DNA from: Candidatus Enterocloster faecavium
GTDB taxonomy: Bacteria > Bacillota > Clostridia > Lachnospirales > Lachnospiraceae
NCBI GenBank assembly: GCA_019118585.1
Contig: DWYS01000033.1
Location: 1 to 55,905, forward strand
Direction of reading: 5' to 3'
DNA length: 55,905 nucleotides
Below, in pieces: positions 30,989 to 53,674 of this stretch. Numbering within the stretch: the stretch's first letter is position 1; every line of letters starts with the position of its first letter. Made by a program: the position numbers and the translations under genes. The notes beneath the pieces are model-generated. The model had not been told where the DNA came from. It worked only from the letters and a program-made list of their open reading frames with translations, and did not search any database.

Positions 30989-31017
30989 TTGACATTTCCC
31001 GAAACTTCCGCTATAAT
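30989..31017 (+). promoter_or_regulatory. Consensus promoter of the tRNA gene
   Basis: TTGACA-N17-TATAAT with an A/T-rich UP element. Confidence 0.85.
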
Positions 31018-31045
31018 TGCTTTTGCGCTGTTGAGATACAGCAAT

Positions 31046-31119
31046 GCGTCAGTAGCTCAGCTGGATAGAGCATACGGCTACGGACCGTAGTGTCGGGAGT
31101 TCGAATCTTCTCTGGCGCG
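31046..31119 (+). tRNA. tRNA-Arg (anticodon ACG); CCA not encoded
   Basis: Acceptor stem GCGTCAG/CTGGCGC; D-arm GCTC-AGCTGGATA-GAGC; anticodon arm TACGG-CTACGGA-CCGTA; T-loop TTCGAAT. Confidence 0.97.
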
Positions 31120-31123
31120 GATG

Positions 31124-31159
31124 AAAAGCCCTGTAAGTGTAAAGCTTGCAGGGTTTTTT
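31124..31159 (+). terminator. tRNA terminator
   Basis: CCCTGTAAG/CTTGCAGGG stem followed by T6. Confidence 0.85.
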
Positions 31160-31212
31160 GATTTTGTATCTCTGGCCGGCTTCCGGTCGTTAAAAAGTCA
31201 AACTTGCGTATC

Positions 31213-31241
31213 TTGCAAAAACAATCCGCATATGCTATAAT
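31213..31241 (+). promoter_or_regulatory. Promoter of the putative antitoxin sRNA
   Basis: TTGCAA-N17-TATAAT with TG extension and no downstream ORF before the terminator. Confidence 0.75.
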
Positions 31242-31246
31242 GCCGT

Positions 31247-31322
31247 TAGGCTAAAGGATATTGGTAATCCAATCACAGACGGCTAAACGAAAACCCCGGA
31301 GCGGCTACTCCGGGGTTTTCTA
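31247..31322 (+). ncRNA. Putative type I antitoxin RNA (RNAII-like, ~70-75 nt; ends approximate)
   Basis: Bounded by a strong promoter and terminator. Carries TAAAGGATATT..TCCAA.CACAGAC, a direct repeat of the toxin start region and therefore complementary to the toxin mRNA. Confidence 0.7.
31289..31320. terminator. Bidirectional terminator shared by the toxin mRNA and antitoxin RNA
   Basis: Perfect 13-bp inverted repeat GAAAACCCCGGAG/CTCCGGGGTTTTC with T-tracts on both strands. Confidence 0.88.
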
Positions 31323-31369
31323 TTCCCATTTTTGTATGGCAGGGTTTACAGCCATAGGTTCGTTACCGG

Positions 31370-31456
31370 CTACTCATCTTTGTCGAACCATTTGCTGACG
31401 AGGTGGCTAACCACACCAGCCATGACATTGATGATAAAGGATATTAGATGTTCCAA
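31370..31456 (-). CDS. Putative type I toxin peptide, Fst/Ldr-like (28 aa)
   Basis: AAAGGGGGTG-N7-TTG; MEHLISFIINVMAGVVSHLVSKWFDKDE* has one hydrophobic helix, an NxxxG motif, a Trp and a charged tail. Below the ORF-track size cutoff. Confidence 0.78.
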   Translation of the reverse strand: MEHLISFIINVMAGVVSHLVSKWFDKDE

Positions 31457-31503
31457 GCACAGACACCCCCTTTCCGTACCGGTATAGGGGCGGTAACATA
31501 AGC

Positions 31504-31532
31504 ATTATAACATAGCCGCAGTAATCCCACAA
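31504..31532 (-). promoter_or_regulatory. Promoter of the putative toxin mRNA
   Basis: Minus strand TTGTGG-N17-TATAAT with a TG extended -10. Confidence 0.7.
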
Positions 31533-31633
31533 TTCCAAAAGGGACCCGGGATTGATTCCGGCTCCATTCGCTATCAATCTGGATGCCGATGACAAAAACT
31601 GGATAGACCCTGAGCAGGAACGCACCATGGTCC

Positions 31634-32581
31634 TTACTCCCCCCGCTGCTCCCCTTCTTCAAAATTCCTCGTCTCATCCACAATATATACCGGCCGGTCC
31701 TTCAGTTCCGTAAAGAGGATGGCGATATACTCTCCGATGATCCCGATGAGAAAAAACATCATAGCAAACATAAAGCAGATCAGCACCACGATCGTGGCGT
31801 AGCCGCTGGGAGCCCCCCTGCGGGTCAGAATGGTGTAAACCATCACTGCCACTCCCAGAAGTCCCGAAAAAATCCCCGCATAAATTCCAAGCTTTAAAGG
31901 CATATTGGAAAAGCAGAGGATCGTATTAACGGAGAAGACAAACAGCTTTTTCAGGCTGTATTTGCTCTCCCCCGCCACCCTGGCCCTGGCCTCGTACTCA
32001 ATGTGGGTGCGGGCAAAGCCGATATTCTGCACATATCCCCGAAGGAACCGCACTTTCTCACGGTAGCTTTTCCTGAGAATTTCAGCGGCGTGACTGCTGA
32101 GCCCGAAGAAATCCGAAGCATTTGGCTCCAGATGGACATCGGAAATGTGATTGATCACCCAGTAAAAGCCGGCGGAAGTAATGTTCTTGATCAGCCCGGC
32201 TGTCCTGTTGTGCGTGCGGACCATGGTGATCACATGATAGCCTTCCTCGATCTTCTCCAGGATTTTCGGGATATATTCCGGCGGATGCTGTAGATCCGCA
32301 TCCATGCAGATCACCGCATCTCCCCGGCTGTAATCCAGGCCGGCAATCATGGCCGCCTCGTGGCCGAAGTTTCTGGAAAAGCTGACAATTTTCACTTTGG
32401 GATTCTCCTCTGCCAGCTCCTCTAAAATCTCCAGGCTCCCATCGCTGCTGCCATCGTTGACAAAGACCAGCTCATAATCCCAGTCCAGCCCTGCCAGCAC
32501 TTTTCCCGTTTCCCTATAAAATTCTTTCAGCGCCTTTTCCTCATTGTAGACAGATACCACAACTGAAACTTTCCTGTCCAT
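31634..32581 (-). CDS. GT2 polyprenol-phosphate glycosyltransferase (GtrB/YkoT/CsbB-like)
   Basis: VNDGSSD, FSRNFGHEAA, MDADLQHPP, two C-terminal TM helices, 'IGEYI..ELKDRP.YIV'. Confidence 0.9.
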   Translation of the reverse strand: MDRKVSVVVSVYNEEKALKEFYRETGKVLAGLDWDYELVFVNDGSSDGSLEILEELAEENPKVKIVSFSRNFGHEAAMIAGLDYSRGDAVICMDADLQHPPEYIPKILEKIEEGYHVITMVRTHNRTAGLIKNITSAGFYWVINHISDVHLEPNASDFFGLSSHAAEILRKSYREKVRFLRGYVQNIGFARTHIEYEARARVAGESKYSLKKLFVFSVNTILCFSNMPLKLGIYAGIFSGLLGVAVMVYTILTRRGAPSGYATIVVLICFMFAMMFFLIGIIGEYIAILFTELKDRPVYIVDETRNFEEGEQRGE

Positions 32582-32606
32582 CGCACCCTTCGGGCCCCTT
32601 TCTCTG

Positions 32607-33458
32607 TCACCATATCTGAATTTCCTGTGTGGAGTGAGTCGGCACCCGCTTTTCCCTGGGCGGGAGTTTCATATAGTCTCCATAGACCTCGGTCAGGATC
32701 GGGTCCCAGCCCCTCGGTACCATCAGCCGTGTGTCCTCAAAATCCATGTCCTCCACCCGGTCGCACCAGTCTTTGTCCACTGTCACGTACATAAAATCCG
32801 GCTGGTAGGTACTGTAATAGCGCAGCCTGCCCTTACTCTTCCTGTCCTTTTTGGAAATGGCGTCCTGGAGCCGAAAAATTGCCTTCATGGGGATCAGCCT
32901 TCCCACGCCGGCCAGACCGGCCACCATCACCTTCTGGGCCGGGGTATACTTTCCAAAATCCAAATGGAAGCGATGTCCCATGGCCAGGCCGTATACAGCC
33001 TTCTGGAGAAACTTGGTCCACCAGGCTCCAAGTTTCCCGGCAGGCAGGCGGTCGATGGTAAATAGATCCACCCAGATATGGTTCAGTTTTCCCTCATAAA
33101 ATGCCATCTCCGGCGTATCCCCATGGCACCGGCTGTTTTTATAGATAATCCGGGGGGTAAAATCATAGAATGCCCGTCCTCCCCGGAAGCTGTCCGGCTC
33201 CAGAAGCTCCATGTGCTCCGGCAGTTCTCTCCCTGCCACCTTCCGGAACGCCTCATACTGGCTCCTGGTCATGGCCACATCCGCATCGTCGTCCCAGGGA
33301 ATGAAACCGTGGTGTCGGACTGCGCCAATCAGCGTCCCCGCATCCAGCCCATAACGGATTTTATATTTCCGGCAGATTCGGTCAATCTCCTTTAAAATCT
33401 CCAGACTGGCCTCATGCACCGCCTTCATATCATATGCGGTATTGGCTGTTTGTTCCAA
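32607..33458 (-). CDS. LicD-family phosphotransferase
   Basis: GTLIGAVRHHGFIPWDDDAD and YGDYMKLPP motifs. Confidence 0.92.
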   Translation of the reverse strand: MEQTANTAYDMKAVHEASLEILKEIDRICRKYKIRYGLDAGTLIGAVRHHGFIPWDDDADVAMTRSQYEAFRKVAGRELPEHMELLEPDSFRGGRAFYDFTPRIIYKNSRCHGDTPEMAFYEGKLNHIWVDLFTIDRLPAGKLGAWWTKFLQKAVYGLAMGHRFHLDFGKYTPAQKVMVAGLAGVGRLIPMKAIFRLQDAISKKDRKSKGRLRYYSTYQPDFMYVTVDKDWCDRVEDMDFEDTRLMVPRGWDPILTEVYGDYMKLPPREKRVPTHSTQEIQIW

Positions 33459-33474
33459 AGCTGCGGCCTCCTTC

Positions 33475-34845
33475 CTAATGTCTTGCTGCCTCCAGGCCTT
33501 CCCGGACGGTCTTTGCCATATAGTCGATCATGGGCTCCGTCATGCCGGGATACAGACCCAGCCAGAAGGTATGTTCCATGATCCGGTCCGTGTTGGCAAG
33601 CTTGCCGCAGATGCGGTAGCTTCCCTCCCGCCCCCTAAGTTCATCGAAACAGGGGTGCCTGGTCAGATTTCCCGCAAAGAGCATCCGGGTCTGAACCTTA
33701 TGGCTTTCGATATAATTCACCAGTTTTCCCCGGTCCACGCCTTCTCTGCAGGTAATAAGGAAGCCAAACCAGCTTGGGTCGGAGCCGGGGCATGCCTCCG
33801 GAAGAATCAGGCTCTCCTCGGTCCCCTTTAATCCGTCCTTCAGCCTCCTGAAGTTCTCCCTGCGCCTCTCCGTAAAATGGGGAAGCTTTTCCAGCTGAGC
33901 GCAGCCAATGGCCGCCTGCATATCCGTCACCTTCAGGTTGTATCCAAAATGGGAGTACACATATTTGTGGTCATACCCCAAAGGCAGCTGCCCGTACACC
34001 CGGTCAAACCGGTGATGGCAGGTGTTATCCTGCCCTGGCGGGCACACGCAGTCTCTTCCCCAGTCCCGGAAGGAACGGACAATTTTATGGAGGAGCGGGT
34101 CATTGGTGTACACTGCACCTCCCTCGCCCATCGTCATATGGTGAGCCGGATAAAAGCTGGAGGTGCCGATATCCCCGATGGTGCCTGTAAAGCGGGTTTC
34201 CTCCCCTTCCGGTCCTTTTACGGTATAGAGGCTTCCCAGGGCATCGCAGTTGTCCTCCACCAGCCACAGATCATGGCGGCGGCAGAAATCCTTCACCGCA
34301 TTCAGGTCAAATGGATTTCCCAGGGTGTGTGCGATCATCACCGCCTTGGTCTTAGGAGAATAAGCCTCCTCCAGCATATTGACATCTATGTTGTACTGGG
34401 GAATGGTCACATCCACGAACACCGGAACCGCCCCGTACTGCACCATAGGCGCTACCGTGGTGGGGAATCCGCAGGCCACGGTAATCACCTCGTCCCCTCT
34501 CTTTACCCGGCGCTCTCCCAAAAGAGGGGAGGTCAGGGCCATAAATGCCAGCAGATTGGCTGAGGAGCCGGAATTGGTAACGGAGCAGAACCTCACATTC
34601 AAATATTCCGCCATCTTTTTTTCAAATTCATCCGTATAGCGCCCTGCAGTCAGCCAGAAATCCAGGGAGCTGTCCACCAGATTCACCATCTCCCGGCTGT
34701 CGTACACACGGGAGGCATAGGAAATCCGGTCTCCCTCCTCAAAGGGCTTCTTCTTGTTGTGAAAAGTCTCGCAGTATTCCGCCACCAGGTCCAAGATCTC
34801 CTGCCTGGCCTGGGACTCCGTCTTATTTTCAAACATGAATTTCAT
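33475..34845 (-). CDS. rfbH: CDP-4-keto-6-deoxyglucose 3-dehydratase (E1, RfbH/DdhC)
   Basis: NSGSSANL, HTLGNPF, EDNCDALG, SFYPAHH.TMGEGG (His in place of the Schiff-base Lys), RDWGRDC.C..G.DNTC Fe-S cysteines, YDHKY.YSH.GYNLK. Confidence 0.92.
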   Translation of the reverse strand: MKFMFENKTESQARQEILDLVAEYCETFHNKKKPFEEGDRISYASRVYDSREMVNLVDSSLDFWLTAGRYTDEFEKKMAEYLNVRFCSVTNSGSSANLLAFMALTSPLLGERRVKRGDEVITVACGFPTTVAPMVQYGAVPVFVDVTIPQYNIDVNMLEEAYSPKTKAVMIAHTLGNPFDLNAVKDFCRRHDLWLVEDNCDALGSLYTVKGPEGEETRFTGTIGDIGTSSFYPAHHMTMGEGGAVYTNDPLLHKIVRSFRDWGRDCVCPPGQDNTCHHRFDRVYGQLPLGYDHKYVYSHFGYNLKVTDMQAAIGCAQLEKLPHFTERRRENFRRLKDGLKGTEESLILPEACPGSDPSWFGFLITCREGVDRGKLVNYIESHKVQTRMLFAGNLTRHPCFDELRGREGSYRICGKLANTDRIMEHTFWLGLYPGMTEPMIDYMAKTVREGLEAARH

Positions 34846-34901
34846 TCTCCTTCATCGATTATACTGTTTTCGTCGGCAGCCGCTCTTGAACCCTTCCCGG
34901 A

Positions 34902-35963
34902 TCACAGGGAAAAGAATTCTTTAATCTGCCGGTCCATCGCCTTTGTCAGATCTTCCCCTACCAGCCACGCCTTATACCAGAGGACTGACCGTTCCACCGC
35001 CTGGCGGATGCCCGTTCTCGGCCTCCAGCCAAAGGTCTTCTTCACACGGGAGCAGTCCAGCTTCAGAAAATTCGCCTCGTGGGGCCCCCCGGCAAAATGG
35101 TTCTCCCAACGGGCGCCTTCTCCCCAGCACTGACAGAACAGCTCCACCAGTTCCCCGGTCGTTACGCAGTCGCAGTCATCAGGCCCTACGTTGTAGTATC
35201 CCTGCAGCGATGGATCCTCCCACTGAGCCATGGCAATGGTCAGGTACACTGCCAGAGGCTCCAGCACCAGCTGATAGGGGCGGGTAGAATGGGGATTGCG
35301 CACACCGATCGGCCTCCCCTCCTTCATAGCCCGGACGCAGTCGGGAATAATGCGGTCGTTGGCAAAATCTCCGCCGCCGATCACATTTCCCGCCCTGGCA
35401 GTGGAGATGGCGCAGCTTCCCTCCTGGAAAAAGGATTTCTGGTAGCTGTGGGTCACCAGCTCGGAGCAGGACTTGCTGTTGGAATATGGGTCATAGCCGT
35501 CCAGAGGGTCTGTCTCCCGGTAACCATACTCCCATTCCCTGTTTTCATAAACCTTGTCCGTGGTCACGTTCAAAAAAGAGCGGACACAGCCGCTTTTGCG
35601 GATGCACTCCAGCACATGGACCGTTCCCATTACATTTGTCTCATAGGTGTACACCGGGTCCTTGTAGGAGTCCCGCACAATGGGCTGAGCTGCCAGGTGG
35701 AACACGATCTCCGGCCTGGCCTCCTCAAAGACCTTCTCCAGATGTTCCAGATCCCGCACATCCCCAATCACGCTTGCAAGCCCGCTGCCGATGCCGGCGA
35801 TTTCAAACAGGCTGGGGTCCGTCGGCGGCTTCAGGCTGTACCCGGTCACCTCCGCTCCCGCCAGTGTCAGGATCCGGCACAGCCAGGACCCCTTAAATCC
35901 CGTGTGGCCGGTGACCAGCACCCGTTTTCCCCTGTAAAATTCCTCTAATCTTTTCCAATCCAT
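34902..35963 (-). CDS. rfbG: CDP-glucose 4,6-dehydratase
   Basis: VTGHTGFKGSWL, HLAAQP.VR.SY, TTDKVY, DPYSNSK, RAGNVIGGGD. Confidence 0.95.
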   Translation of the reverse strand: MDWKRLEEFYRGKRVLVTGHTGFKGSWLCRILTLAGAEVTGYSLKPPTDPSLFEIAGIGSGLASVIGDVRDLEHLEKVFEEARPEIVFHLAAQPIVRDSYKDPVYTYETNVMGTVHVLECIRKSGCVRSFLNVTTDKVYENREWEYGYRETDPLDGYDPYSNSKSCSELVTHSYQKSFFQEGSCAISTARAGNVIGGGDFANDRIIPDCVRAMKEGRPIGVRNPHSTRPYQLVLEPLAVYLTIAMAQWEDPSLQGYYNVGPDDCDCVTTGELVELFCQCWGEGARWENHFAGGPHEANFLKLDCSRVKKTFGWRPRTGIRQAVERSVLWYKAWLVGEDLTKAMDRQIKEFFSL

Positions 35964-35966
35964 CCC

Positions 35967-36749
35967 TTAATCCTTCCAAATCTTCCATGGTGCCTGTCCG
36001 GACTGCCACAGACTCTCCAGCTTCTTCATTTCCCTCTGGGTATCCATACACTGCCAGAATCCGTCGTGGTAGAAAGATTTCAGCTGTCCTTCCGCCGCCA
36101 GGCGCCGCATGGGCCCCTGCTCGAATACGGTGGTATCGTCCTCCAGATAATCGAAAATTCCGGGATTCAGCACCATGAAGCCGCCGTTGATCAGCACCCC
36201 GTCGCTTTCATCCTTTTCCCGGAAGGAGAGGACCGTATTGTTCTCGTCAATATCCAGCACGCCCTTCATCTGGCCAATGTTCACAGTGGTGATGGTGGCA
36301 ATCTTTCCGTGGGACTGGTGGAATTTCAGCAGCGCCGCCAGATCCACTGTGCTGACACCATCCCCGTAGGTCAGCATAAAAGGCTCATCCCCTGTAAAGG
36401 GCCGGATGCGCTTTACCCGGCCGCCGGTCATGGTGTTTAGTCCTGTATCCACCAGGGTCACCTTCCAGGGCTCCGCATAATTGTTGTGAACCTCCATCCG
36501 GTTATTTGCCAGATCAAAAGTCACATCGGACGTGTGAAGAAAATAGTCCGCGAAAAATTCCTTTACCACATACTGCTTGTACCCCAGACAGATTACGAAA
36601 TCATGGAATCCGAACTCCGAGTAATATTTCATAATATGCCATAAAATGGGCTTGCCCCCAATCTCAATCATGGGCTTTGGCTTTAAATGGCTCTCCTCGC
36701 TGATTCTGGTGCCGAATCCGCCGGCCAAGATAACCACCTTCATGTTCAT
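35967..36749 (-). CDS. rfbF: Glucose-1-phosphate cytidylyltransferase
   Basis: LAGGFGTRISEES..KPKPM, TMTGGR, LTYGDG, GFWQCMDT. Start at 36749 or 36743. Confidence 0.95.
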   Translation of the reverse strand: MNMKVVILAGGFGTRISEESHLKPKPMIEIGGKPILWHIMKYYSEFGFHDFVICLGYKQYVVKEFFADYFLHTSDVTFDLANNRMEVHNNYAEPWKVTLVDTGLNTMTGGRVKRIRPFTGDEPFMLTYGDGVSTVDLAALLKFHQSHGKIATITTVNIGQMKGVLDIDENNTVLSFREKDESDGVLINGGFMVLNPGIFDYLEDDTTVFEQGPMRRLAAEGQLKSFYHDGFWQCMDTQREMKKLESLWQSGQAPWKIWKD

Positions 36750-38164
36750 TCCTCCTCGCGGAACACATTCCAGTGATTCTCTTCCAAAATCTGGTATGCA
36801 TTCCTGATTTTATCATTCCCGTTCCAATATTCAAAAAAGTCCGCCAGCTCGTCTCCCTGAGCTTCAAATTCTTCATCCGTAAGCTTCGGAACCTCAAGAG
36901 CCCGCTCTGCCCTGGCCTCAAACCATTCCTTGCGGTATGGAGCCATTTCTAATTCATGATAAGTAGTATAACCATTTCCCAGAAGGATTGCAACCGAGAA
37001 TATGGCCGCCAGGGTGCGCCCCACCATCCAGAACTTCTGCTCAATCTGCAGAACCAGTGCAAAGGTCAGGAGAATCCCAAAGATTCCCACCTGAAACTGC
37101 AGGGTGTAGCGGGAGGAATTCAGGGCGTAGGACTCCTTCTCAAAAATATACCTGGTCAGAAATACCAGCAGATGATTCAGTCCTCCTCCCAGCAGCAGCA
37201 TCATAGGCATGATGGCCCGCTCGTAAAGACGGTAGCGGATATTCATCCAAAGAGCCGCAAGGTATCCGCAGATGACGAACAATCCGATTCCGTAGCAGGC
37301 CTTGTTGCTGAGAAGCCCGCTGTTCATCCAGTTGGTCAGTTCCTCCCCTCCCACCAGGATTCCCGCAAAGGACTTTAACAGAAAGCGGATGGGAAATGTG
37401 GGGTGATCCATCAGAATCACCCACAAAGGCCGCCCCGTATCCCCTGCATGTTCCTCGACCACATAGGAATTGCTGAGAACATAGAGCAGCAGGGGGATCA
37501 GCGCACAGAAGAACCAGGCTATAAACCATCTCTGCTCCTCCTTCTTTCCCTTCTGTCCGCAGCGGATCAGGCAGTACAGATAGGACACCAGCAGCACCGC
37601 CGCATAGCTTGCCCCGTAGGGTCCTGCGGCTCCCAGGATGATCAGCCAGGGCAGGATACAGAGCCTGGCCTTGTCTCCCTTCTTTCCCTCGCCGCTCCAG
37701 ACCCGGTCCAAAACCAGCTCGTGGTAGTAAAAGCCTGCAAAGGCGAGAAAATGGGCCCAGCCGCTGCCGTTGGTGATCATCTCCCACTTGTTCAGGCTGA
37801 ACATCACCGCCATGAGGATCACAAACCACATAAGCCCCAGCCTGCGCCTTTTGCAGTATGAACCGAACACCAGACCTGCCAGTCCCAGCCCCACAGCGCC
37901 CAGCACCCGGTCCAGGGTAACGGAAAATCCGAAAAATTCCACGTTGATGATCCGTTCCAGATAATTGATCGGGATTCTGGTCAGAACATCGGGAACCAGA
38001 AATTTCTTCAGATCATACACATCGGGCAGATAGCTGTTGACCAGCCGGATATAATCAGAATAAACCACATCGCAGGTGGACTGGGCAATATACCAGCACA
38101 CAAACACCGTTCCCAGAATGGGAAGCAAAATATAAATGAGAGATTTAAGCTTTTCTCTTTCCAT
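36746..38164 (-). CDS. Polytopic membrane protein, probable GT-C-fold glycosyltransferase
   Basis: About 11-12 TM segments; acidic 'DVVYSDY' loop after TM1; located in a glycan locus with a GtrB-like enzyme. Function is inferred. Confidence 0.55.
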   Translation of the reverse strand: MEREKLKSLIYILLPILGTVFVCWYIAQSTCDVVYSDYIRLVNSYLPDVYDLKKFLVPDVLTRIPINYLERIINVEFFGFSVTLDRVLGAVGLGLAGLVFGSYCKRRRLGLMWFVILMAVMFSLNKWEMITNGSGWAHFLAFAGFYYHELVLDRVWSGEGKKGDKARLCILPWLIILGAAGPYGASYAAVLLVSYLYCLIRCGQKGKKEEQRWFIAWFFCALIPLLLYVLSNSYVVEEHAGDTGRPLWVILMDHPTFPIRFLLKSFAGILVGGEELTNWMNSGLLSNKACYGIGLFVICGYLAALWMNIRYRLYERAIMPMMLLLGGGLNHLLVFLTRYIFEKESYALNSSRYTLQFQVGIFGILLTFALVLQIEQKFWMVGRTLAAIFSVAILLGNGYTTYHELEMAPYRKEWFEARAERALEVPKLTDEEFEAQGDELADFFEYWNGNDKIRNAYQILEENHWNVFREEE

Positions 38165-38210
38165 GACTTTACGAATCTCCTGTTTTCAGTAGCATTCAAC
38201 CGCACGACTT

Positions 38211-40067
38211 TTACTCCACGCTGGGGAACACCAGCGCCGCCAGACGGTAGTCGCTTCTCTGCTCCGTGGCATTCTGGCTGTAAAAATTAAAGGCAAACGT
38301 CAGCTGCACCCGCTCCCAGGGCTCTGCCTGGATCTGGGTATTGACGACGCTGGAAGTTAATGGAATCACCTTGGTCTCCCGGTCCCCCACGGTAATCGTG
38401 ATTTCCTCCCCGCCTTCCATGATGCCGGGGAACATAATCTCCAGGTTGATGATGCCGCTTGCTCCGGCCATCACCGTGATGCAGCCCCTCTCGTCCATCC
38501 AGTGGTCCTTGTAATAATAGCCGTACTGGGTGCTCAGCTTCATGGTGCGGACCGCCTCGGTAATGTCAATGTACTGGTCGTAGTCCGGGTCCTCCTGGAG
38601 GATGATCATGTTTTCATCCACCAGGCCAAAATCCCACACAGAGCTGATAAACTCCACATTGGTCAGCTCCTGGGTCCGATCCTCCTTTTGAAATACCTTA
38701 AAGAAGGTTCTGGCCGTAAAATCACTGACCTCATAGCTGTTGCCGATGATGTAGACCGTCTTTCCCTCCATATTTCCGTATTTCTCATGGGTCACCTCTG
38801 CCAGGGAATTGTATCTGGCCTGTTCCGGAAAAAAGTAGATATTGGGAAATGCATAGGTCCTCATAAACAGCTCCACCGGGAGCATCAGGACCGCATAGCC
38901 CAGCAGCAGGATTCCCCATGGAAAAAACCGCTTTAAGTAAAATTCCGGCTTCACCTCTCCGGTAAGAGCCCCGTACATATAGGCCATAAACAGCAGGGAG
39001 GCCGCCAGGGAAATGTAGATCCAGCGCATCTCAACCCGGATGGTCACACAGGCTGCCGCAATGGTCAGGCCGATGAAGACGACAAAAAGAGCACCGTTCG
39101 CCAGAAGCCTGCCTCTCTGGCCCTTGTCCTTCTGGCTGAGGATTTTCCAGATAAATCCGATCACCAGCACTGCGATCAGCAAATCCGCCAGCAGGATCAG
39201 AATCTTCACCGCCATGGGATTGCTGCCCCAGGGACAGCCGTTTAAGTAATCCGGCCCCGCATTGATCCCGAAGACATAGCCGATTTCACTGAGGGCATGT
39301 TGGAAGGCCTCCCCGATGGAAAACGTCTCCGCCACCTGGGTCCGCCCGGTCCCCGCCGGCATCACCGTTCCGATGGCAAAAAAACGGATCATCTGCATCA
39401 GGAGAAAGGAGCCAAGAGCCGCTCCCCACATAGGAAGCCTTCGGCATTTCTTCATCAGCAGAACGAAAAGCAGAAGAGGGAACAGAGCCATATACCGCTC
39501 ATGGACAAAGCACACCCCGAAATACAGGGCACAGGCGGCGTAAAATCTTCCTTCCTGCTTCTCCTCGTTAAGATACCGGAACAGATACCAGAGAATCCCC
39601 AGCCCCATCCAGAGAGCCATGGTCTCCATCAGCCCCAGCACCTGGCCGATCTGGTAGTAGGACAGGCGGCTGGCCAGATACATCAGGCCGCACAAGAATC
39701 CCGCCCCCTTGGAGCCGGAAAGCTTTCTGCCCATAAAATACATGGTCCAGGCCACCATAGTGTTCAGCACGATATTGATGGGAACAAACCAGTTTACATG
39801 CGTTCCTACAAACATCATCTCCAGCCATGCGGCCAGATAATGGAGGAAGCGGAACCGGGTGCTGCCCACCGGAAATACATACTGGAGAAAGCTCTGTTCT
39901 CCATAGCAGGACCAGAGATAAAGATCATCCATATAAAGGCCTTTAATCTCGATCCCCCGGTTCAGCCAAAAAGCAGCCCCCAGCAGGATTCCCATAAGAA
40001 TTACATGGTCTTTCCACTGGCTGTCCCTGCCTGTCCGGGCCCGTCCCTGATTTTGTGTCTTATCCAT
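38211..40067 (-). CDS. Polytopic membrane protein with a C-terminal extracellular domain, probable GT-C-fold glycosyltransferase
   Basis: 'YMDDLY' DD motif after TM1, many TM helices, soluble C-terminal region. Function is inferred. Confidence 0.55.
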   Translation of the reverse strand: MDKTQNQGRARTGRDSQWKDHVILMGILLGAAFWLNRGIEIKGLYMDDLYLWSCYGEQSFLQYVFPVGSTRFRFLHYLAAWLEMMFVGTHVNWFVPINIVLNTMVAWTMYFMGRKLSGSKGAGFLCGLMYLASRLSYYQIGQVLGLMETMALWMGLGILWYLFRYLNEEKQEGRFYAACALYFGVCFVHERYMALFPLLLFVLLMKKCRRLPMWGAALGSFLLMQMIRFFAIGTVMPAGTGRTQVAETFSIGEAFQHALSEIGYVFGINAGPDYLNGCPWGSNPMAVKILILLADLLIAVLVIGFIWKILSQKDKGQRGRLLANGALFVVFIGLTIAAACVTIRVEMRWIYISLAASLLFMAYMYGALTGEVKPEFYLKRFFPWGILLLGYAVLMLPVELFMRTYAFPNIYFFPEQARYNSLAEVTHEKYGNMEGKTVYIIGNSYEVSDFTARTFFKVFQKEDRTQELTNVEFISSVWDFGLVDENMIILQEDPDYDQYIDITEAVRTMKLSTQYGYYYKDHWMDERGCITVMAGASGIINLEIMFPGIMEGGEEITITVGDRETKVIPLTSSVVNTQIQAEPWERVQLTFAFNFYSQNATEQRSDYRLAALVFPSVE

Positions 40068-40083
40068 TTGAGAAACGCCTCCT

Positions 40084-40869
40084 CTAACTGTACTCCTTGT
40101 AAGCTGTGCGGTATCCTCTCATCAGCAGCTCCACCACCGGTCTGGGCCAGAACCGCTCAAACATCTCCCTCTCCTCCAGCTCTCTTTTATGGCTTCGGAT
40201 ACAGGCCTTGGTAGCGGCCCCGTCGTGGACCCGGTAATAGAGAAGGGGCCTCTCCTCACAGATCCAGCGTCCCGGCTCATTCGCCAGCCGAAACATGTTG
40301 TCCCAGTCCAGAACAAACGAGTAGTCCGAATGGATCAGCGGCTCCCCTATCTTCTTTTTGCAGTAGGTGGTAGCCGGGCAGCAGATGGAATTTCCAAACA
40401 TCAGGGAAAGCTTCTTCACCTGGGATAGATGGCTCAGCGCCCTTGCCCGCAGAGGCAGGCGCAGCAGACGCTTTACAAGCAGCAGCTTATCCCAGGAAAT
40501 AAGCCTTTCCCCCTTCACGATCACATAATCACTGGTAAATACGGTCAGATCCGGATAGGAGAGAACCGCCTTTGCCAGTTGTTCCCCATACTCCCTGTGG
40601 TAGAGATCATCCTGATGGGCCAAGGTAACGAAATCTCCATCCGCCTTCTCCCAGGCAAAGTTCCAGTCGTCCCGGATGTTGCTCTGTCCCTGCCGGACAT
40701 AAACCGGCACCCCGTACTTTTCCCCCATTTTGGTCAAAAAAGCGCTGGGGGTGGAGGTACAGATCATGATTTCAGATGGCCGCGTCTGGGCCTTCAGGGA
40801 ACGGAGGCAGGCCTCCAGATAAGGGGATTCCCCGTAGGCGCAGACGGCAAATACATGGGTGTATGACAT
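40084..40869 (-). CDS. Glycosyltransferase family 2
   Basis: 'YLEACLRSLKAQT', 'DWNFA', 'LAHQDD', 'DW', 'YYRVH' GT-A motifs. Confidence 0.85.
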   Translation of the reverse strand: MSYTHVFAVCAYGESPYLEACLRSLKAQTRPSEIMICTSTPSAFLTKMGEKYGVPVYVRQGQSNIRDDWNFAWEKADGDFVTLAHQDDLYHREYGEQLAKAVLSYPDLTVFTSDYVIVKGERLISWDKLLLVKRLLRLPLRARALSHLSQVKKLSLMFGNSICCPATTYCKKKIGEPLIHSDYSFVLDWDNMFRLANEPGRWICEERPLLYYRVHDGAATKACIRSHKRELEEREMFERFWPRPVVELLMRGYRTAYKEYS

Positions 40870-40901
40870 TGTGGTTTCTCCTCTTTGCGAAATCGTAATT
40901 A

Positions 40902-43900
40902 TTACGTAAAGTCATCCTTGATGATATCCCAGGTGCCGTCCAAGCTGAAATATTTCTTCATGTAATCCTGGGTTTTCTGCTCCATCTGGCGGCACAGGTC
41001 CGGATTCTGATAGAGGTCAATGGTCTGGCGGGCAAAGCCCTCCGCCGTGTCCTCGATCTTTAATGCCTGCTCCACAAAGGGGATCCCCTCCGCTCCGATG
41101 GAGGTGGTGATCACGGGAGCCCCGTTGTAGAGGGCCTCCAGCACCTTTCCTTTCACTCCGGCGCCGTAGCGCAGCGGCACCACTACCACACGGCAGGTGG
41201 CGTACAGACGCTCCAGTTCCTCATCGCTGACAAAGCCCTTGATCACGATTCCGTTGTCCGGCTGCTCCAAGGCCTTGATCTCATCCGTCACCTTGGAGCC
41301 CACCACATAAAACTTCACATCCGGCAGTTCTTTCCGGATATCCGGGAAAATCTCCCTGGCGAACCACAGCACCGCGTCCGCGTTAGGCGGATGCGCGAAG
41401 CCTCCCACAAACAGCAGTCCTTCCCGCTTCTCAAAGTCCTCGTTCAGCTTCTCCTTGAAGGTGTCGTAGACATAGAGGGAGATGGCTTTTGCCCGGATGC
41501 TGGCATCAATGGAATGGATCACATTGATCTCTACATAAGAGGGATAGTAGGACATATCTGCCTTGTACATCATGGAAAATTCCATGGACTTCCAGTAGTC
41601 CGCCTCCCGCTTGGTCTCAATCTTTCCGTCCAGCTCATATTCCCGGTTCAGGCGCAGGAAATGAAGGTCATGGCCGAAATAAATCACCTTGATCTTGGTG
41701 TAATCCTTAATAAAATCCACATACTTGGTGGCAATGTGGGGCCGGTTCAGATAGGCAAAGGAAATTTCATTTCCGTTTTTCTTCAGCCAGTCCCAGATTC
41801 CGGCAGCATACCAGTCACCGTAAAGGACCTCGATCCCCATCTGCTCCAGGGCAGTGGTGTACGGCTCCTCGTGGAGGAAATTGTCCCCCAAAAACTTCAC
41901 CACAAACCCCTTCTTCAAAAACATCTTCATATACAGGTAAGTGGCCTTGGAACCGGCATCCTTGTCAAAGGTAGGCACATAGTGGTCCACCACCAGGATC
42001 ATCTTTTTGCCCTGGCTGCGCTCCCTGGCCCTGAAGGGATTGGGGTTGCCGTCATTGACGCACTGGCTCTTTAGCTCCTTCGCCCACTTCTCCTTAAATT
42101 TCTCAGCGTTCTCCACCTGATAGCGCTTCAGCCCTGTGCCATTTACATCTGTTCCATTGGAAATCCCCTCAAAGTGAATGACCTTGGAGCGGGGCTGGTA
42201 CACCACCCGGTATCCGGCCTTTCTCACCTCAAAGGCCAGGTCCGTATCCTCATAGTAGGCCGGAGCAAACCGCTCGTCAAATCCGCCAATCTGCTGCCAC
42301 AGAACTCTGGGAATGAGAATGGCGGCGCCGGAAATATAGTCCACTTCCTTCACATAGTTGTACTCCGGCTTTTCCGGGTCATCCAGACGGCCATAGTTCC
42401 ACCCGGAGGCATCGCTCCAGATGATTCCTCCCGCCTCCTGAAGCCGCCCGTCGGGATAAACCAGCTTGGAGCCGGCGATCCCGATGGTGGGGTCCGCCTC
42501 CATCATACCCACCAGGGAGGACAGCCACCCCTCCGTCACTTTGGTGTCATTATTCAGGAAGAAAATGTATTTGCCCCTGGCCTTCTTCGCCGCATTGTTG
42601 CAGTTTTTCAAAAAGCCCTGGTTGGTGCTGTTCCGGCAGATGACCAGCCCGTCCACATATCGGTCCAGATGGGCGGTGGCATCCGTGGACACATCATCCG
42701 CAATGATTACCTCGTAGGTGACGTCCTTCGTATATTCCAGGATGGACTGAAGGCAGGCATAGGTATAGCCCACCTGATTGTAGCAGGGGATGATGATGGA
42801 AACCATGGGACCCTCCCATCCGTTCGCCCCCTCTTTCCCGTCTCCGGGCACCTGCGGAAATGAAAGACGGCCGTACTGCATATAGGCATCCCCGATCTGG
42901 AAATCTCCTTCGATCCGGTTTCTCCCCTCTGAAGTAGCGTAAAGACGGCCGTAGCGGACCGGGTGCTTGACGGTGTTAATCCCATAATTTAAAAGCTTCC
43001 GCTTCCTGGTTCCCTTGGGGAACGCCTTGTTGACCTGAACCCCCAGCTTTCTCCTGGCCTTAAACACCAGGGCCTCATGGCCGTTCAGGTAGGTAGCCAG
43101 CTTTCCCAGCTCATCGATCTCATGGCGCAGGTCCTTGATCATCACTTCCAGGTTGGTTACATGGTTGTTGGTCAGCCGCTGGACCTCCTGCTCCTTGCGG
43201 ATTTGGAGATTCTTCTCCTCCACCTCCGCCTGGAGCTGCAGGATCCGGTCCTTTGCCCGGGCCAGCTCCTCATCCCGTCCTTTCAGCTCTTCCAGCGTGA
43301 TCACCGGATGGCTGTATCCCGCCAGATAGCCCTGGTTTCCGTCCCCGTGGACGTATGCCTGGAAAGATCCTTCCATACCGGCATACACTGCGGCAAGCTC
43401 CTGGCTGATCCCAAACGCTTTGAGGAATTCCTGGACGGAGGAACAGTCCATTCTCCCCTGGTAGCGGTTATAGAAATAGTACAGCAGGCGGTAGCGCACA
43501 AAACCTGCCGGGATTGGAAAATCAAACACCCACTCGTAGTCGATGGCGCAAAGTTTCCCCTCCGCCTCCATCCAGTTTTCCAGCAAACCGTCCAGGTTGG
43601 TTACCGGGCTGGAAATGCCGCCAATATCCGGAATGGTTCCAAACACCTCCGTAAAGGCAGGAGTGACCTCAAAAGGTTCTCCCTGTTTCTCCGCCGGTCC
43701 CAGCAGAAAATCCAGGGCCTCCTTTATGGCTTCCACCGGGACCTTCCGGTCCTGGATCTCATCTGCCAGCTTCTGCTCCAGGGTACGTCCCTGAAGAAAA
43801 GCAAAGCGTGCCCTTCTTCCGTCCTCAGAAATCTCCGGCTTTAAGATATCCACCTGGGAATTGATTTTTTTCAGCTTCTCATACTTATCCTGAAAAGAGC

Positions 43901-44822
43901 GGATGTGGGCCGCTCCTTCCGGCTTTAAGGCCATTTTTTCTACGATGCGCTTTCCGCCCTCTTCCAGGATCTTCGTGCTGATCTGAAAGGCCGGCTTTCT
44001 GGTGCGGTTATACTTGGCAAAAATGACCCTCTGCTCCCTGGCTCCCTTGGAGGCCACTGCCAGAAAACTTTCCGCGAAGCGTTCAAAATCCCCTTCCCCG
44101 ATCAGCTGGTCATAGACCTGTCCTTCCGGAAGGCAGGCATAGCGTCCTTCCTCATAAGCCGTACAGGGAGACGGAAGGTCGCCCTGGGACGGCAGATACC
44201 GGTGGGAATAGACCGCCCCCGGAAGCCGGCCGTCCGGCACGGGATAATAAAATTCCGCCTGGTCCAGGCCGGCCCCCTGCAGGGCCCGGCGAAGCTGGCC
44301 CAACGTGCAGACTGCCTCATCTGTTGAACGGGGCGCGCCGGAAAGAGCAGGAAGCCCAAGAGAATTGGAACAGGCTGTGACCATGCGCCCGCCTTTTGCC
44401 AAAAATGGCACCAGCTCTCCCACCTGCTCCTCCAGGCTTTTTTCTACTGAAGGATGAAGAAGAAAAATCCACTGAAATTTCTCTTCCGGCTTGATCTGAT
44501 CGAGTTCCCGCAGGAAACGGATCGAACCCCTCTCCTGATTCCGCCTGCGGTTTACCTCGCTGTTCTCATCCAGCTTTTCCAGCACTGTCACCTGGCCGCA
44601 GCGTTCTGCCAGAAGGCCCGTCAGAGCCCCGTAGCCGGAGCCGATCTCCAGCACCTGGTCCTCCTTTGAAAAATCCAGCCATTCCAGCAGATTTTCCCTT
44701 CCCTCCGCCAGGGCGTAAAGGACCTGGGGCCGTTGGTCCTGGGCCAAAGCCTCGTCCAGCCCCTGACGGCTCTCTCCATATTCTTTCATTAAATCCAGGA
44801 TTTCATAGCTTATATCACTCAT
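40902..44822 (-). CDS. Multidomain glycan synthase: SAM methyltransferase + kinase-like + coiled coil + GT2 + GT4-like
   Basis: VLEIGSGYG (SAM motif I); 'NLDGLLENW...IDYEW' phosphotransferase-like segment; heptad stretch EELARAKDRILQLQAEVEEKN; SIIIPCYNQ/FLNND/YYEDTD (GT2); GGFAHPPN..GAGVKGK..EA (GT4-like). Confidence 0.8.
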   Translation of the reverse strand: MSDISYEILDLMKEYGESRQGLDEALAQDQRPQVLYALAEGRENLLEWLDFSKEDQVLEIGSGYGALTGLLAERCGQVTVLEKLDENSEVNRRRNQERGSIRFLRELDQIKPEEKFQWIFLLHPSVEKSLEEQVGELVPFLAKGGRMVTACSNSLGLPALSGAPRSTDEAVCTLGQLRRALQGAGLDQAEFYYPVPDGRLPGAVYSHRYLPSQGDLPSPCTAYEEGRYACLPEGQVYDQLIGEGDFERFAESFLAVASKGAREQRVIFAKYNRTRKPAFQISTKILEEGGKRIVEKMALKPEGAAHIRSFQDKYEKLKKINSQVDILKPEISEDGRRARFAFLQGRTLEQKLADEIQDRKVPVEAIKEALDFLLGPAEKQGEPFEVTPAFTEVFGTIPDIGGISSPVTNLDGLLENWMEAEGKLCAIDYEWVFDFPIPAGFVRYRLLYYFYNRYQGRMDCSSVQEFLKAFGISQELAAVYAGMEGSFQAYVHGDGNQGYLAGYSHPVITLEELKGRDEELARAKDRILQLQAEVEEKNLQIRKEQEVQRLTNNHVTNLEVMIKDLRHEIDELGKLATYLNGHEALVFKARRKLGVQVNKAFPKGTRKRKLLNYGINTVKHPVRYGRLYATSEGRNRIEGDFQIGDAYMQYGRLSFPQVPGDGKEGANGWEGPMVSIIIPCYNQVGYTYACLQSILEYTKDVTYEVIIADDVSTDATAHLDRYVDGLVICRNSTNQGFLKNCNNAAKKARGKYIFFLNNDTKVTEGWLSSLVGMMEADPTIGIAGSKLVYPDGRLQEAGGIIWSDASGWNYGRLDDPEKPEYNYVKEVDYISGAAILIPRVLWQQIGGFDERFAPAYYEDTDLAFEVRKAGYRVVYQPRSKVIHFEGISNGTDVNGTGLKRYQVENAEKFKEKWAKELKSQCVNDGNPNPFRARERSQGKKMILVVDHYVPTFDKDAGSKATYLYMKMFLKKGFVVKFLGDNFLHEEPYTTALEQMGIEVLYGDWYAAGIWDWLKKNGNEISFAYLNRPHIATKYVDFIKDYTKIKVIYFGHDLHFLRLNREYELDGKIETKREADYWKSMEFSMMYKADMSYYPSYVEINVIHSIDASIRAKAISLYVYDTFKEKLNEDFEKREGLLFVGGFAHPPNADAVLWFAREIFPDIRKELPDVKFYVVGSKVTDEIKALEQPDNGIVIKGFVSDEELERLYATCRVVVVPLRYGAGVKGKVLEALYNGAPVITTSIGAEGIPFVEQALKIEDTAEGFARQTIDLYQNPDLCRQMEQKTQDYMKKYFSLDGTWDIIKDDFT

Positions 44823-46539
44823 GACTGTTCCCCGTTCTCACATTTTCCATAAATCGCTCCACGGCCTCTGCCCGCTCCCGCTCCATTTCTTCCAAGTCTT
44901 CCTTCTTCCTGGAAGATACGGAAAGGTAGAGCTTCAGCTTGGGCTCTGTTCCGGAAGGCCGCAGGATCACCGTTCCCCCGTCCTCCAGCACATATTTCAG
45001 CACATTAGACTTCGGCAGTCCTTCCAGGCCCTGTTCATAGTCCAGGACCTGCTTTACCGCCAGCCCTCTGATATTTGCTCCCTTTGCCCGGAAGGCCTTC
45101 ATGATCTCCTCCATCTGCCGGGCTCCCGCCGAACCCTCAAACTGGTAGGAGTGCTGGGTCTCCAGACAGCAGCCGTATGTCTCGTAAATCCGGTTCAGCC
45201 GTTCCAGAAGAGACTCCCCCCTGGCCAGGTAAAAGGCAGCCATCTCGCAGATCAAGAGGGCGGCGTTTACCCCGTCCTTGTCCCGCACATAGGTGCCGCT
45301 CAGATAGCCGCAGCTCTCCTCAAAGCCAAAGATAAAATCCAACTCCCGGCCCGCCGCCTCCAGCTGTCCGATGTATTCTCCAATATATTTGAAGCCGGTC
45401 AGCAGATTTACCACCTGAACGCCGTAATGGGCTGCAATGGTCTCTGCCAGGGCCGTGGTTACGATCGTCTTGGCCATCACGGGATGTGCCGGCATGGTAC
45501 CGTTTTCCTTCCTTCTGGAGCAGATATAGTCCAGAAGCAGAAGCCCTGTCTCATTGGCGGAAAGGCGCTGATAGCCGCCTTTTCCATCCTTTACGGCAAT
45601 TCCAACCCGGTCGCAGTCCGGATCCGTAGCCAAAAGGAGCTCCCCCTTCAGCCTTCCGGCTAGGGCAATCCCCAAGTCCATGGCCTGTGGCACCTCCGGA
45701 TTGGGATAGGGACAGGTCGGAAAAGTTCCGTCCGGCTGCTCCTGCTCTTTCACCATATGGACATTGAAATATCCCATCTCCTTTAACACCCTCGTCACCG
45801 GCTCCAGGCCCGTTCCGTTTAAGGGGGTATAGACAATGGCCATATCCCGGCAGGCCTCTGTCTGCTCCGTGAGAAGAGACTGAGCCTTCACCGCCTCTAT
45901 ATAAGCAGTCACGGTGTCCTCCCCGATGACGGAAATGAGCTTTCCCTTCACCGCCTCCTCCAGCTCCATGCGCTTTACATCCCGGAACACATCCAGCCTT
46001 CCAATCCGCTCCGAGATTTCTCCTGCCGCCTGGCTGGTAATCTGGCAACCGTCGGCGCCGTAGACCTTGTATCCGTTATACCGGGCCGGATTGTGGGAGG
46101 AGGTAATCATAATTCCCAGACAGCAGGAAAGCCGCCGCACCGCAAAGGAAAGGCAGGGCGTAGGCATGAGCCTTGAAAAGATCTTCACCTCCACGCCATT
46201 TGCCGCCAGTACCTGTGCCGCTGTCTCCGCAAAAAGCCGGGATTTGATACGGGAATCATAGCTGATAGCCGCCCGCCGTTTTTCCTCAGGAAAATGGGCG
46301 CAGATATAATCAGCCGCTCCCTGGGTGGCCTGGGCCACCGTGTACAGATTCATCCGGTTGGTGCCCGCTCCGATGATCCCCCTGAGTCCCCCCGTTCCGA
46401 AGGACAGGCTCCGGTAGAAGGCATCCTCGATCTTCTCCGGTTTTCCCTCCATCTGCTTTAACTCCAGGGCTACATCCACATCCTCCGTGGCCTCCCGGCA
46501 CCACCGGCTGTAAACCTCTTCCATTTCTGCGTACTGCAT
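44815..46539 (-). CDS. Phosphoglucomutase/phosphomannomutase
   Basis: FGTGGLRG, ITSSHNP (phospho-Ser), DPDCDR, FEES.GY, RPSGTEPKLK. Confidence 0.93.
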   Translation of the reverse strand: MQYAEMEEVYSRWCREATEDVDVALELKQMEGKPEKIEDAFYRSLSFGTGGLRGIIGAGTNRMNLYTVAQATQGAADYICAHFPEEKRRAAISYDSRIKSRLFAETAAQVLAANGVEVKIFSRLMPTPCLSFAVRRLSCCLGIMITSSHNPARYNGYKVYGADGCQITSQAAGEISERIGRLDVFRDVKRMELEEAVKGKLISVIGEDTVTAYIEAVKAQSLLTEQTEACRDMAIVYTPLNGTGLEPVTRVLKEMGYFNVHMVKEQEQPDGTFPTCPYPNPEVPQAMDLGIALAGRLKGELLLATDPDCDRVGIAVKDGKGGYQRLSANETGLLLLDYICSRRKENGTMPAHPVMAKTIVTTALAETIAAHYGVQVVNLLTGFKYIGEYIGQLEAAGRELDFIFGFEESCGYLSGTYVRDKDGVNAALLICEMAAFYLARGESLLERLNRIYETYGCCLETQHSYQFEGSAGARQMEEIMKAFRAKGANIRGLAVKQVLDYEQGLEGLPKSNVLKYVLEDGGTVILRPSGTEPKLKLYLSVSSRKKEDLEEMERERAEAVERFMENVRTGNSHE

Positions 46540-46563
46540 GCTGTATGTCTCCTTCTGTCCCTT

Positions 46564-53488: not shown

Positions 53489-53547
53489 AAAAATAAGCCT
53501 CCTTTAAATTCCCGCGATTCTCGCAGCAAAAGAGGCTTTTCTTCGTC

Positions 53548-53637
53548 TTTCACTCCCTACGCCGGTGTGAACCGGATCAGGTTAACGGGTCCGGCTTAAA
53601 AGCCGTCTCAGCCGCTGTGCGACACCCCGGGAAAATT
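53548..53637 (-). promoter_or_regulatory. TPP riboswitch
   Basis: Minus strand GGGGTG..CTGAGA..ACCCGTTAACCTGATCCGGTTCACACCGGCGTAGGGA, the canonical THI-box, upstream of ykoF. Confidence 0.95.
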
Positions 53638-53674
53638 TCTATTTTAATTGGAACCAATTTACTTACGGTTCCTA

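What the first reader, a model, noticed from the sequence alone, without database searches (positions are those of the whole stretch)
31213..31532. Apparently complete par/Fst-like type I toxin-antitoxin module hidden between tRNA-Arg and the glycan locus
Seen: in 320 bp that the ORF track does not explain there are two convergent promoters (31213-31241 on +, 31504-31532 on -), a shared 13-bp bidirectional terminator (31289-31320), and a 28-aa minus-strand ORF with a strong SD (MEHLISFIINVMAGVVSHLVSKWFDKDE). A direct repeat places a near copy of the toxin start region (31435-31464) inside the short plus-strand transcript (31252-31280). Known: this is the architecture of the Enterococcus pAD1 par locus (RNAI/Fst toxin, RNAII antitoxin, direct repeats, shared terminator). 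Inference: an active chromosomal type I TA system. The peptide has NxxxG where Fst peptides have P/D/S/TxxxG, so it may belong to a divergent and poorly described clostridial family.
Basis: partly seen in the sequence, partly recalled or inferred. Interest (0 to 1): 0.85.

Follow-up and report, generated by a model that had tools for sequence, protein, structure and literature searches.

The report
Stranded Fst-family toxin-antitoxin cassette
A 320-base cassette next to a tRNA gene encodes a small membrane-type peptide and a predicted antisense RNA that would silence it; it belongs to a gut-bacterial branch of the known Fst toxin family, often found in prophages, and this copy was likely left behind by one.

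Summary
The module is real. Both promoters, the 13-bp terminator, the 28-codon ORF and the two repeat blocks are at the stated coordinates. A leader stem hiding the ribosome site and a 5'-3' helix are also present, with compensatory changes in relatives. Each predicted antitoxin pairs best with its own toxin's start region in 22 of 23 and 65 of 76 loci. The peptide is not a new family: a profile built from its relatives recovers two peptides that Fozo et al. 2010 list as clostridial Ldr/Fst toxins. The NxxxG motif is private to this copy (relatives have A, T or S). Pfam and NCBIfam miss it. The clade occurs in 84 of 300 family genomes, and 32 of 50 distinct viral copies adjoin an endolysin gene. 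The closest syntenic relative lacks the module, so this copy is likely a stranded prophage remnant. RNA-library contigs cover it, strand unknown; toxicity is untested. Earlier scan notes described the holin-endolysin slot as an accessory hot spot; none matched this module. Verdict: new member of a known kind.

The parts
30989..31017 (+). Context: tRNA promoter, 12/12 consensus
31045..31120 (+). Context: tRNA-Arg(ACG), followed by its own terminator at 31122-31160
31213..31241 (+). Antitoxin promoter (extended -10)
   Evidence: the same 11-nt extended -10 stretch in 59 of 76 homologous modules
31248..31324 (+). Predicted antitoxin RNA (RNA II-like), about 73-77 nt; ends inferred
31252..31262 (+). 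Repeat block a in the antitoxin (complementary to toxin codons 4-8)
   Evidence: 11/11
31268..31280 (+). Repeat block b in the antitoxin (complementary to the SD edge, spacer and start codon)
   Evidence: 12/13
31289..31320 (.). Shared bidirectional terminator hairpin; no YUNR U-turn in either loop
31335..31356 (-). 3'-UTR hairpin of the toxin mRNA
   Evidence: stem changes in step across homologues seen by eye, not counted
31362..31368 (-). 3' strand of the 5'-3' 'upstream helix'
   Evidence: (P = 0.8)
31370..31456 (-). 28-aa Fst/Ldr-type peptide ORF (TTG start)
31435..31464 (-). Antitoxin target region on the mRNA (repeat blocks a and b)
31464..31471 (-). Shine-Dalgarno sequence, predicted paired in all folding intermediates tested (mean unpaired 0.12-0.17)
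31486..31497 (-). Predicted mRNA 5' end: upstream-helix strand (31491-31497) overlapping the anti-SD strand (31486-31492)
31504..31532 (-). Toxin promoter (extended -10, weak -35)
31537..31565 (-). Hairpin upstream of the toxin promoter, weakly like the hairpins flanking phage holin-endolysin copies
   Evidence: 9 and 18 of 500 shuffles as high

Best explanation
This is a par/Fst-type type I toxin-antitoxin cassette whose predicted ~73-nt antisense RNA would block translation of a 28-aa membrane-type peptide, and this copy is likely a remnant stranded by a decayed prophage or similar element at tRNA-Arg. Steps: (1) A ~213-nt mRNA folds a leader stem over its own SD and a 5'-3' helix (predicted; compensatory changes shown). 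(2) The convergent RNA pairs through two repeat blocks across the SD edge, start codon and codons 2-8, and probably also through the complementary terminator loops (block complementarity shown, pairing predicted, loop contact inferred from pAD1 par). (3) If antitoxin synthesis stops, the peptide is made, inserts in the membrane and arrests growth (inferred from Fst/Ldr relatives, untested). (4) On prophages and plasmids this would work as an addiction module; here it would mainly maintain itself (inferred). Repeat sequences differ between copies, so the genome's two modules should not silence each other (predicted).
For: Cognate antitoxin/start-region duplex is best in 22 of 23 distinct modules (-39.5 vs -17.7 kcal/mol non-cognate; 0 of 20000 permutations) and in 65 of 76 in a larger, partly overlapping set (top three in 76 of 76). 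Upstream helix: 4 of 7 pairs change on both sides; anti-SD stem has a C-G to U-A swap in 9 of 23; 98% of cells paired vs 31-58% in slid controls. Duplex -38.2 exceeds opening costs of 4.4 and 8.1 kcal/mol. The profile recovers peptides identical to two in Fozo's Ldr/Fst list (L229 E 3.7e-9, L231 E 1.5e-13), and both loci show the same terminator and repeat copy. Conserved Trp and charged tail. Mobile context: 32 of 50 distinct viral loci adjoin an endolysin; 11 of 66 genome loci do, and 11 more adjoin integrase, resolvase, Rep, Mob or T4SS genes; 4 plasmid records; the genome's second copy is in a prophage tail/holin region. Solo copies L007, L015 and L028 keep phage-flank stubs (E 1e-38 to 1e-63). 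The syntenic site in G036 lacks the module and G024 has a truncated copy after the same tRNA. RNA-library contigs cover the module in 7 of 7 runs laid.
Against: No toxicity, strand-specific RNA or transcript-end data. The peptide is at the low end of family hydrophobicity (best 19-mer 1.67 vs mean 2.17, range 1.53-2.82) and carries a private Asn, so it may be weakened. No U-turn in this copy's loops, and only 14 of 76 relatives have one on the toxin strand. No integrase beside it, no duplicate of the tRNA 3' end in the assembly and no holin or lysin stub, so prophage origin of this copy rests on analogy and a weak hairpin match. 35 of 135 loci with flanks failed my terminator or promoter patterns and were not examined. 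Relatives are not independent, and runs were chosen because they hold the stretch.
Confidence: 0.8

Rival explanations
1. Same RNA switch, but this copy's peptide is weakened or harmless; the cassette is a decaying passenger.
For: Low hydrophobicity and private Asn. Decayed copies exist: early stop in L020, insertion in L218, toxin gene lost in L219 and L221, truncation in L217.
Against: ORF, SD, both promoters and both repeat blocks are intact and the antitoxin still matches its own mRNA. RNA contigs cover it.
Confidence: 0.2
2. A domesticated chromosomal stress or persistence module inherited vertically with the tRNA and glycan locus, like parEF0409 or Fst-Sm/srSm.
For: It sits between core-type genes; many genome copies have housekeeping neighbours; 32 of 36 genus genomes carry some copy.
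Against: G036, with the same peptidase-tRNA-glycosyltransferase order, lacks it here, as do the other syntenic loci checked. Sites vary widely and several solo copies keep phage stubs.
Confidence: 0.15
3. The family is a lysis or phage-defence regulator: its terminator and back-firing promoter gate endolysin expression, or host shut-off by an incoming phage releases the peptide (abortive infection).
For: 20 of 50 viral loci have the endolysin directly downstream on the same strand, 10 of them with a Pfam holin upstream, across four holin and four endolysin types.
Against: 12 of 50 lie after the endolysin instead. The module also sits by head, integrase and plasmid genes. Palindromes and duplicated flanking hairpins fit a general accessory slot. 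This copy has no lysis genes.
Confidence: 0.12
4. It is a member of the C. difficile prophage type I toxin family (NF047374) rather than Fst.
For: This peptide's only NCBIfam hit is NF047374 (E 0.018), and 6 of 23 members hit it (best 2.7e-4) vs 2 of 23 for NF033608.
Against: 15.5 bits against a cut-off of 60; the model is 51 aa. The antitoxin here does not overlap the ORF and acts through repeats, the organisation T1TAdb gives for Fst/RNAII and SprA1.
Confidence: 0.05

Closest known systems
Clostridial Ldr/Fst entries of Fozo et al. 2010 (PMC2887945, Suppl. Fig. S1A and the toxin table in supplementary file 4: C. bolteae, C. asparagiforme, Anaerostipes caccae, Anaerococcus)
   Same: Same clade: a profile of this family recovers two listed peptides exactly (9/28 and 11/28 identical to the window peptide).
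   Different: Listed there as peptides only, in the parts I read; no RNA anatomy, antitoxin specificity, distribution or phage context.
Enterococcus faecalis parpAD1 (RNA I/Fst, RNA II) and parEF0409 (PMC7472228)
   Same: Convergent promoters, shared terminator, two repeat blocks over the initiation region, SD-hiding leader stem, 5' upstream helix, Trp plus charged tail; repeats variable between systems.
   Different: 28 aa vs 33 aa; A/T/S (here N) in place of Pro in PxxxG; no U-turn in this copy; below Pfam PF13955 and NF033608 thresholds.
Staphylococcus aureus SprA1/SprA1AS and Streptococcus Fst homologues
   Same: par-like organisation with interaction outside the overlap; S/T/D-xxxG clades exist.
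   Different: Different hosts; this peptide has an acidic-leaning tail and no Cys after the motif.
C. difficile prophage type I TA modules (PMC7699646)
   Same: Small membrane-type toxins in clostridial prophages, shown there to stabilise the prophage; weak profile likeness.
   Different: Longer, positively charged tails; that paper reports no homology to other TA families; score far below the NF047374 cut-off.

Membership tests
Fst/Ldr toxin superfamily | Conserved Trp after a hydrophobic segment, followed by a charged C-terminus | tested here: met
   W23 invariant in 23 of 23; best 19-mer hydropathy 1.67; definition
Fst/Ldr toxin superfamily | P/D/S/T-xxx-G motif (majority feature) | tested here: inconclusive
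   This copy has NxxxG, so not met; 50 of 109 relative peptides have S/TxxxG and 48 have AxxxG; the review calls it a feature of most, not all
Fst/Ldr toxin superfamily | Homology to published members | tested here: met
   Profile A3 recovers two peptides in Fozo's Ldr/Fst alignment at E 3.7e-9 and 1.5e-13
Fst/Ldr toxin superfamily | Curated HMM cut-off (PF13955, PF13940, NF033608) | tested here: not met
   No hit for the window peptide; 2 of 23 relatives hit each model weakly
par-like locus | Convergent promoters and shared bidirectional terminator | tested here: met
   (sequence level)
par-like locus | Two direct repeats giving antitoxin complementarity over the initiation region | tested here: met
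par-like locus | 5' stem-loop hiding the SD, and 5' upstream helix | tested here: met
par-like locus | YUNR U-turn in the toxin terminator loop (not universal) | tested here: not met
   Absent here; 14 of 76 relatives; the review notes not all homologues have it
type I TA system | Both RNAs expressed from opposite strands | tested here: inconclusive
   RNA-library contigs cover both regions; strand, ends and DNA carry-over cannot be told
type I TA system | Peptide toxic, neutralised by the less stable RNA | not testable with these tools
   needs bench work
C. difficile type I toxin (NF047374) | HMM cut-off 60 bits | tested here: not met
   15.5 bits

The most novel reading that the evidence does not exclude
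A large, unannotated clade of Fst cassettes in gut Lachnospiraceae, each with a private antitoxin code, is a functional part of prophage lysis modules: it gates endolysin expression or aborts superinfecting phages. It also bridges the Fst/Ldr and C. difficile type I toxins. This stranded copy would then serve the host as a defence module, fed extra antitoxin by read-through from the tRNA promoter.
Probability: 0.12. Interest if true: 0.65.

Novelty: new member of a known kind. Interest (0 to 1): 0.33.

Why it matters
The system type is known, so the locus itself is modest. The useful result is about the clade. It is common in gut Lachnospiraceae (84 of 300 family genomes, up to 7 matches in one genome), is missed by current Pfam and NCBIfam models, and shows naturally orthogonal antitoxin-target pairs. 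It offers a test of whether Fst modules stabilise gut prophages, as type I modules do in C. difficile, and a possible source of counter-selection markers for hard-to-engineer commensals.

Tried and rejected
Rfam at gathering threshold: only tRNA and a TPP riboswitch in the window. Pfam, NCBIfam and PHROGs: no significant hit for the window peptide; Fst models found nothing here in the genome. PDB profile search: 2 chance-level hits. GenBank phage collection: no match. Exact look-up: 0 of 10 peptides in the 15-billion collection, possibly a size limit of that collection, so not read as novelty. Attachment-site duplicate of the tRNA 3' end: only the gene itself. The window-to-L100 flank match (E 4e-10) proved to be a different tRNA plus its terminator and was dropped as evidence. 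Modules 3.5 kb from tRNA-Arg in four genomes lie after a serine hydroxymethyltransferase-type gene (identified by eye), not in a tRNA island. MITE remnant in the flanks: no repeat in the genome. Toxin-side RNA contig ends at 31473-31482 in 4 runs could hint at a 5' end or cleavage, but two carry adapter and three other contigs cross the promoter; not used. No fold or protein-database search was run: the peptide is under the tools' size limits. Earlier-findings search by sequence returned nothing.

Full report
Observation. The plus promoter matches 10 of 12 consensus bases with an extended -10. The minus promoter has a perfect extended -10 but a 3/6 -35 and was not listed by the scan. The terminator has 13/13 complementary arms, and the repeat consists of two blocks (11/11 and 12/13) offset by one base. 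A leader stem keeps the SD paired at all six transcript lengths folded (mean unpaired 0.12-0.17), and a 7-bp helix joins the mRNA 5' end to the bases after the stop codon (P = 0.8).

Homologues and tests against chance. The genome holds one more copy, in a prophage tail/holin region. DNA matches occur in 34 of 151 genomes searched, the window's own included. The peptide profile hits 32 of 36 genus genomes and 84 of 300 family genomes. Named records carrying it are mostly Lachnospiraceae. Of the 28 full-length candidate loci parsed, 2 failed the parser, 1 has a stop at codon 2 and 2 were duplicates, leaving 23. In these the antitoxin 5' domain pairs best with its own start region in 22 of 23 (mean -39.5 vs -17.7 kcal/mol; 0 of 20000 permutations). 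In 160 further loci, 150 had a parsable ORF, 135 had enough flank, 114 a terminator and 100 an antitoxin promoter by my patterns. The 76 distinct ones gave the cognate best in 65 and in the top three in all 76. Five modules are shared between the two sets, and the 35 pattern failures were not examined. The repeats thus diverge between loci but stay matched within a locus, which is what selection on pairing predicts. The upstream helix has 4 of 7 pairs changed on both sides, and the anti-SD stem a C-G to U-A swap in 9 of 23; 98% of cells pair against 31-58% in slid controls. Kin are related, so these counts overstate independent events. The window's antitoxin pairs poorly with the second copy's mRNA (-18.1) and vice versa (-23.4).

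Family. The window peptide has no Pfam hit and no NCBIfam Fst hit. Two of 23 relatives hit Fst and Ldr models weakly and 6 of 23 hit the C. difficile model NF047374 far below its cut-off. Fozo et al. 2010 (PMC2887945; passages, supplement file 1 part 2 and table rows seen) list clostridial Ldr/Fst peptides. My profile, built only from this family, recovers two of them letter for letter at L229 and L231, and both loci have the terminator and a repeat copy matched to their own start region (-25.3 and -39.9). Weaver 2020 (PMC7472228; parts 1-2 of 5 and passages) defines the signature (Trp, charged tail, mostly P/D/S/TxxxG) and the par anatomy, and notes that repeats vary between systems and U-turns are not universal. 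Soutourina 2019 (PMC6563280; passages) mentions these clostridial Fst-like sequences only as in-silico hits. T1TAdb (PMC8594479; passages) gives the non-overlapping organisation for Fst/RNAII and SprA1.

Context. Neighbours were called by a simple ORF rule and scanned with Pfam (106 upstream and 104 downstream proteins from 116 distinct loci). Of 50 viral loci, 20 have an endolysin directly downstream (10 with a Pfam holin upstream) and 12 directly upstream; several are near-identical phages. Of 66 genome loci, 11 adjoin an endolysin and 11 adjoin integrase, resolvase, Rep, Mob or T4SS genes; the rest have housekeeping or unnamed neighbours. Four plasmid records match. A 12-bp palindrome precedes 35 of 130 toxin promoters and three phage copies have clearly duplicated flanking hairpins. 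This fits earlier scan notes that the holin-endolysin gap is an accessory slot, so I do not read the position as proof of a lysis role. Solo copies L007, L015 and L028 keep phage-flank stubs. For this copy: G036 has the same peptidase-tRNA-glycosyltransferase order without the module, G024 has a truncated copy in the same orientation after the same tRNA, and seven other loci show the same tRNA-facing geometry, as do two prophage ends, against five with the opposite one. There is no integrase beside it, no attachment duplicate and no lysis stub; the upstream hairpin resembles phage-slot hairpins only weakly (9 and 18 of 500 shuffles). Prophage origin is therefore likely, not shown. Peltier 2020 (PMC7699646; abstract and passages) shows prophage stabilisation by type I modules in C. 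difficile, the closest functional precedent.

Expression. Seven RNA runs from two studies were laid, all as contigs and all chosen because they hold the stretch. All 7 cover part of the module. In X4 and X5 the pieces over it reach depth 20-36, against about 2-4 for other long pieces across 20 kb. Five runs bridge the tRNA terminator into the antitoxin region, a hint of read-through. Strand, ends and DNA carry-over cannot be told.

Against. Nothing shows toxicity. The peptide is near the family's minimum hydrophobicity and lacks a U-turn partner, and decayed copies are common.

Literature limits. Seven searches found no study of this clade's RNAs, activity or lysis-cassette position. Passages of a prophage survey in a related species (PMC11318856) do not list it, and PMC12821620 (passages) is irrelevant. 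Weaver 2009 and Kwong 2010 were seen only as citations, and T1TAdb supplements were not read; they may cover clostridial par loci.

Verdict. A real and apparently intact par/Fst-type cassette of an already listed but uncharacterised Lachnospiraceae clade. New member of a known kind; interest 0.33.

Noticed in passing
L041, L047, L062, L066, L070, L079, L080, L093, L100, L133, L144, L169, L176: The module sits directly before endolysin genes of four types, often after a holin of four types, placing a terminator and a back-firing promoter upstream of the endolysin.
   Followed up: partly
L092:2400-3100, L237, L235, L229: Tandem modules; where parsed, each antitoxin matches its own toxin start region.
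   Followed up: partly
L218-L221 (after a serine hydroxymethyltransferase-type gene): One site in four genomes shows a decay series: intact module, insertion in the toxin ORF, toxin gene lost with antitoxin side kept, terminator only.
   Followed up: partly
window 31045-31283: RNA-library contigs from five runs bridge the tRNA-Arg terminator into the antitoxin region; possible read-through supplying extra antitoxin.
   Followed up: partly
upstream of toxin promoters, e.g. L041, L074, L133: A 12-14-bp palindrome precedes 35 of 130 toxin promoters; the four exact forms searched are absent from the window's genome.
   Followed up: partly
window 31634-49286: Surface-glycan locus: GT2 glycosyltransferase, LicD-like gene, CDP-dideoxysugar-type genes, a 1306-aa multi-domain glycosyltransferase and an ABC exporter subunit (only the GT2 checked by Pfam; the rest by eye).
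   Followed up: no
window 53537-53639: TPP riboswitch upstream of a thiamine-uptake-type operon.
   Followed up: no
alignment A3: 6 of 23 members weakly match both the C. difficile type I toxin model NF047374 and phrog_738; a possible distant link between the families.
   Followed up: no
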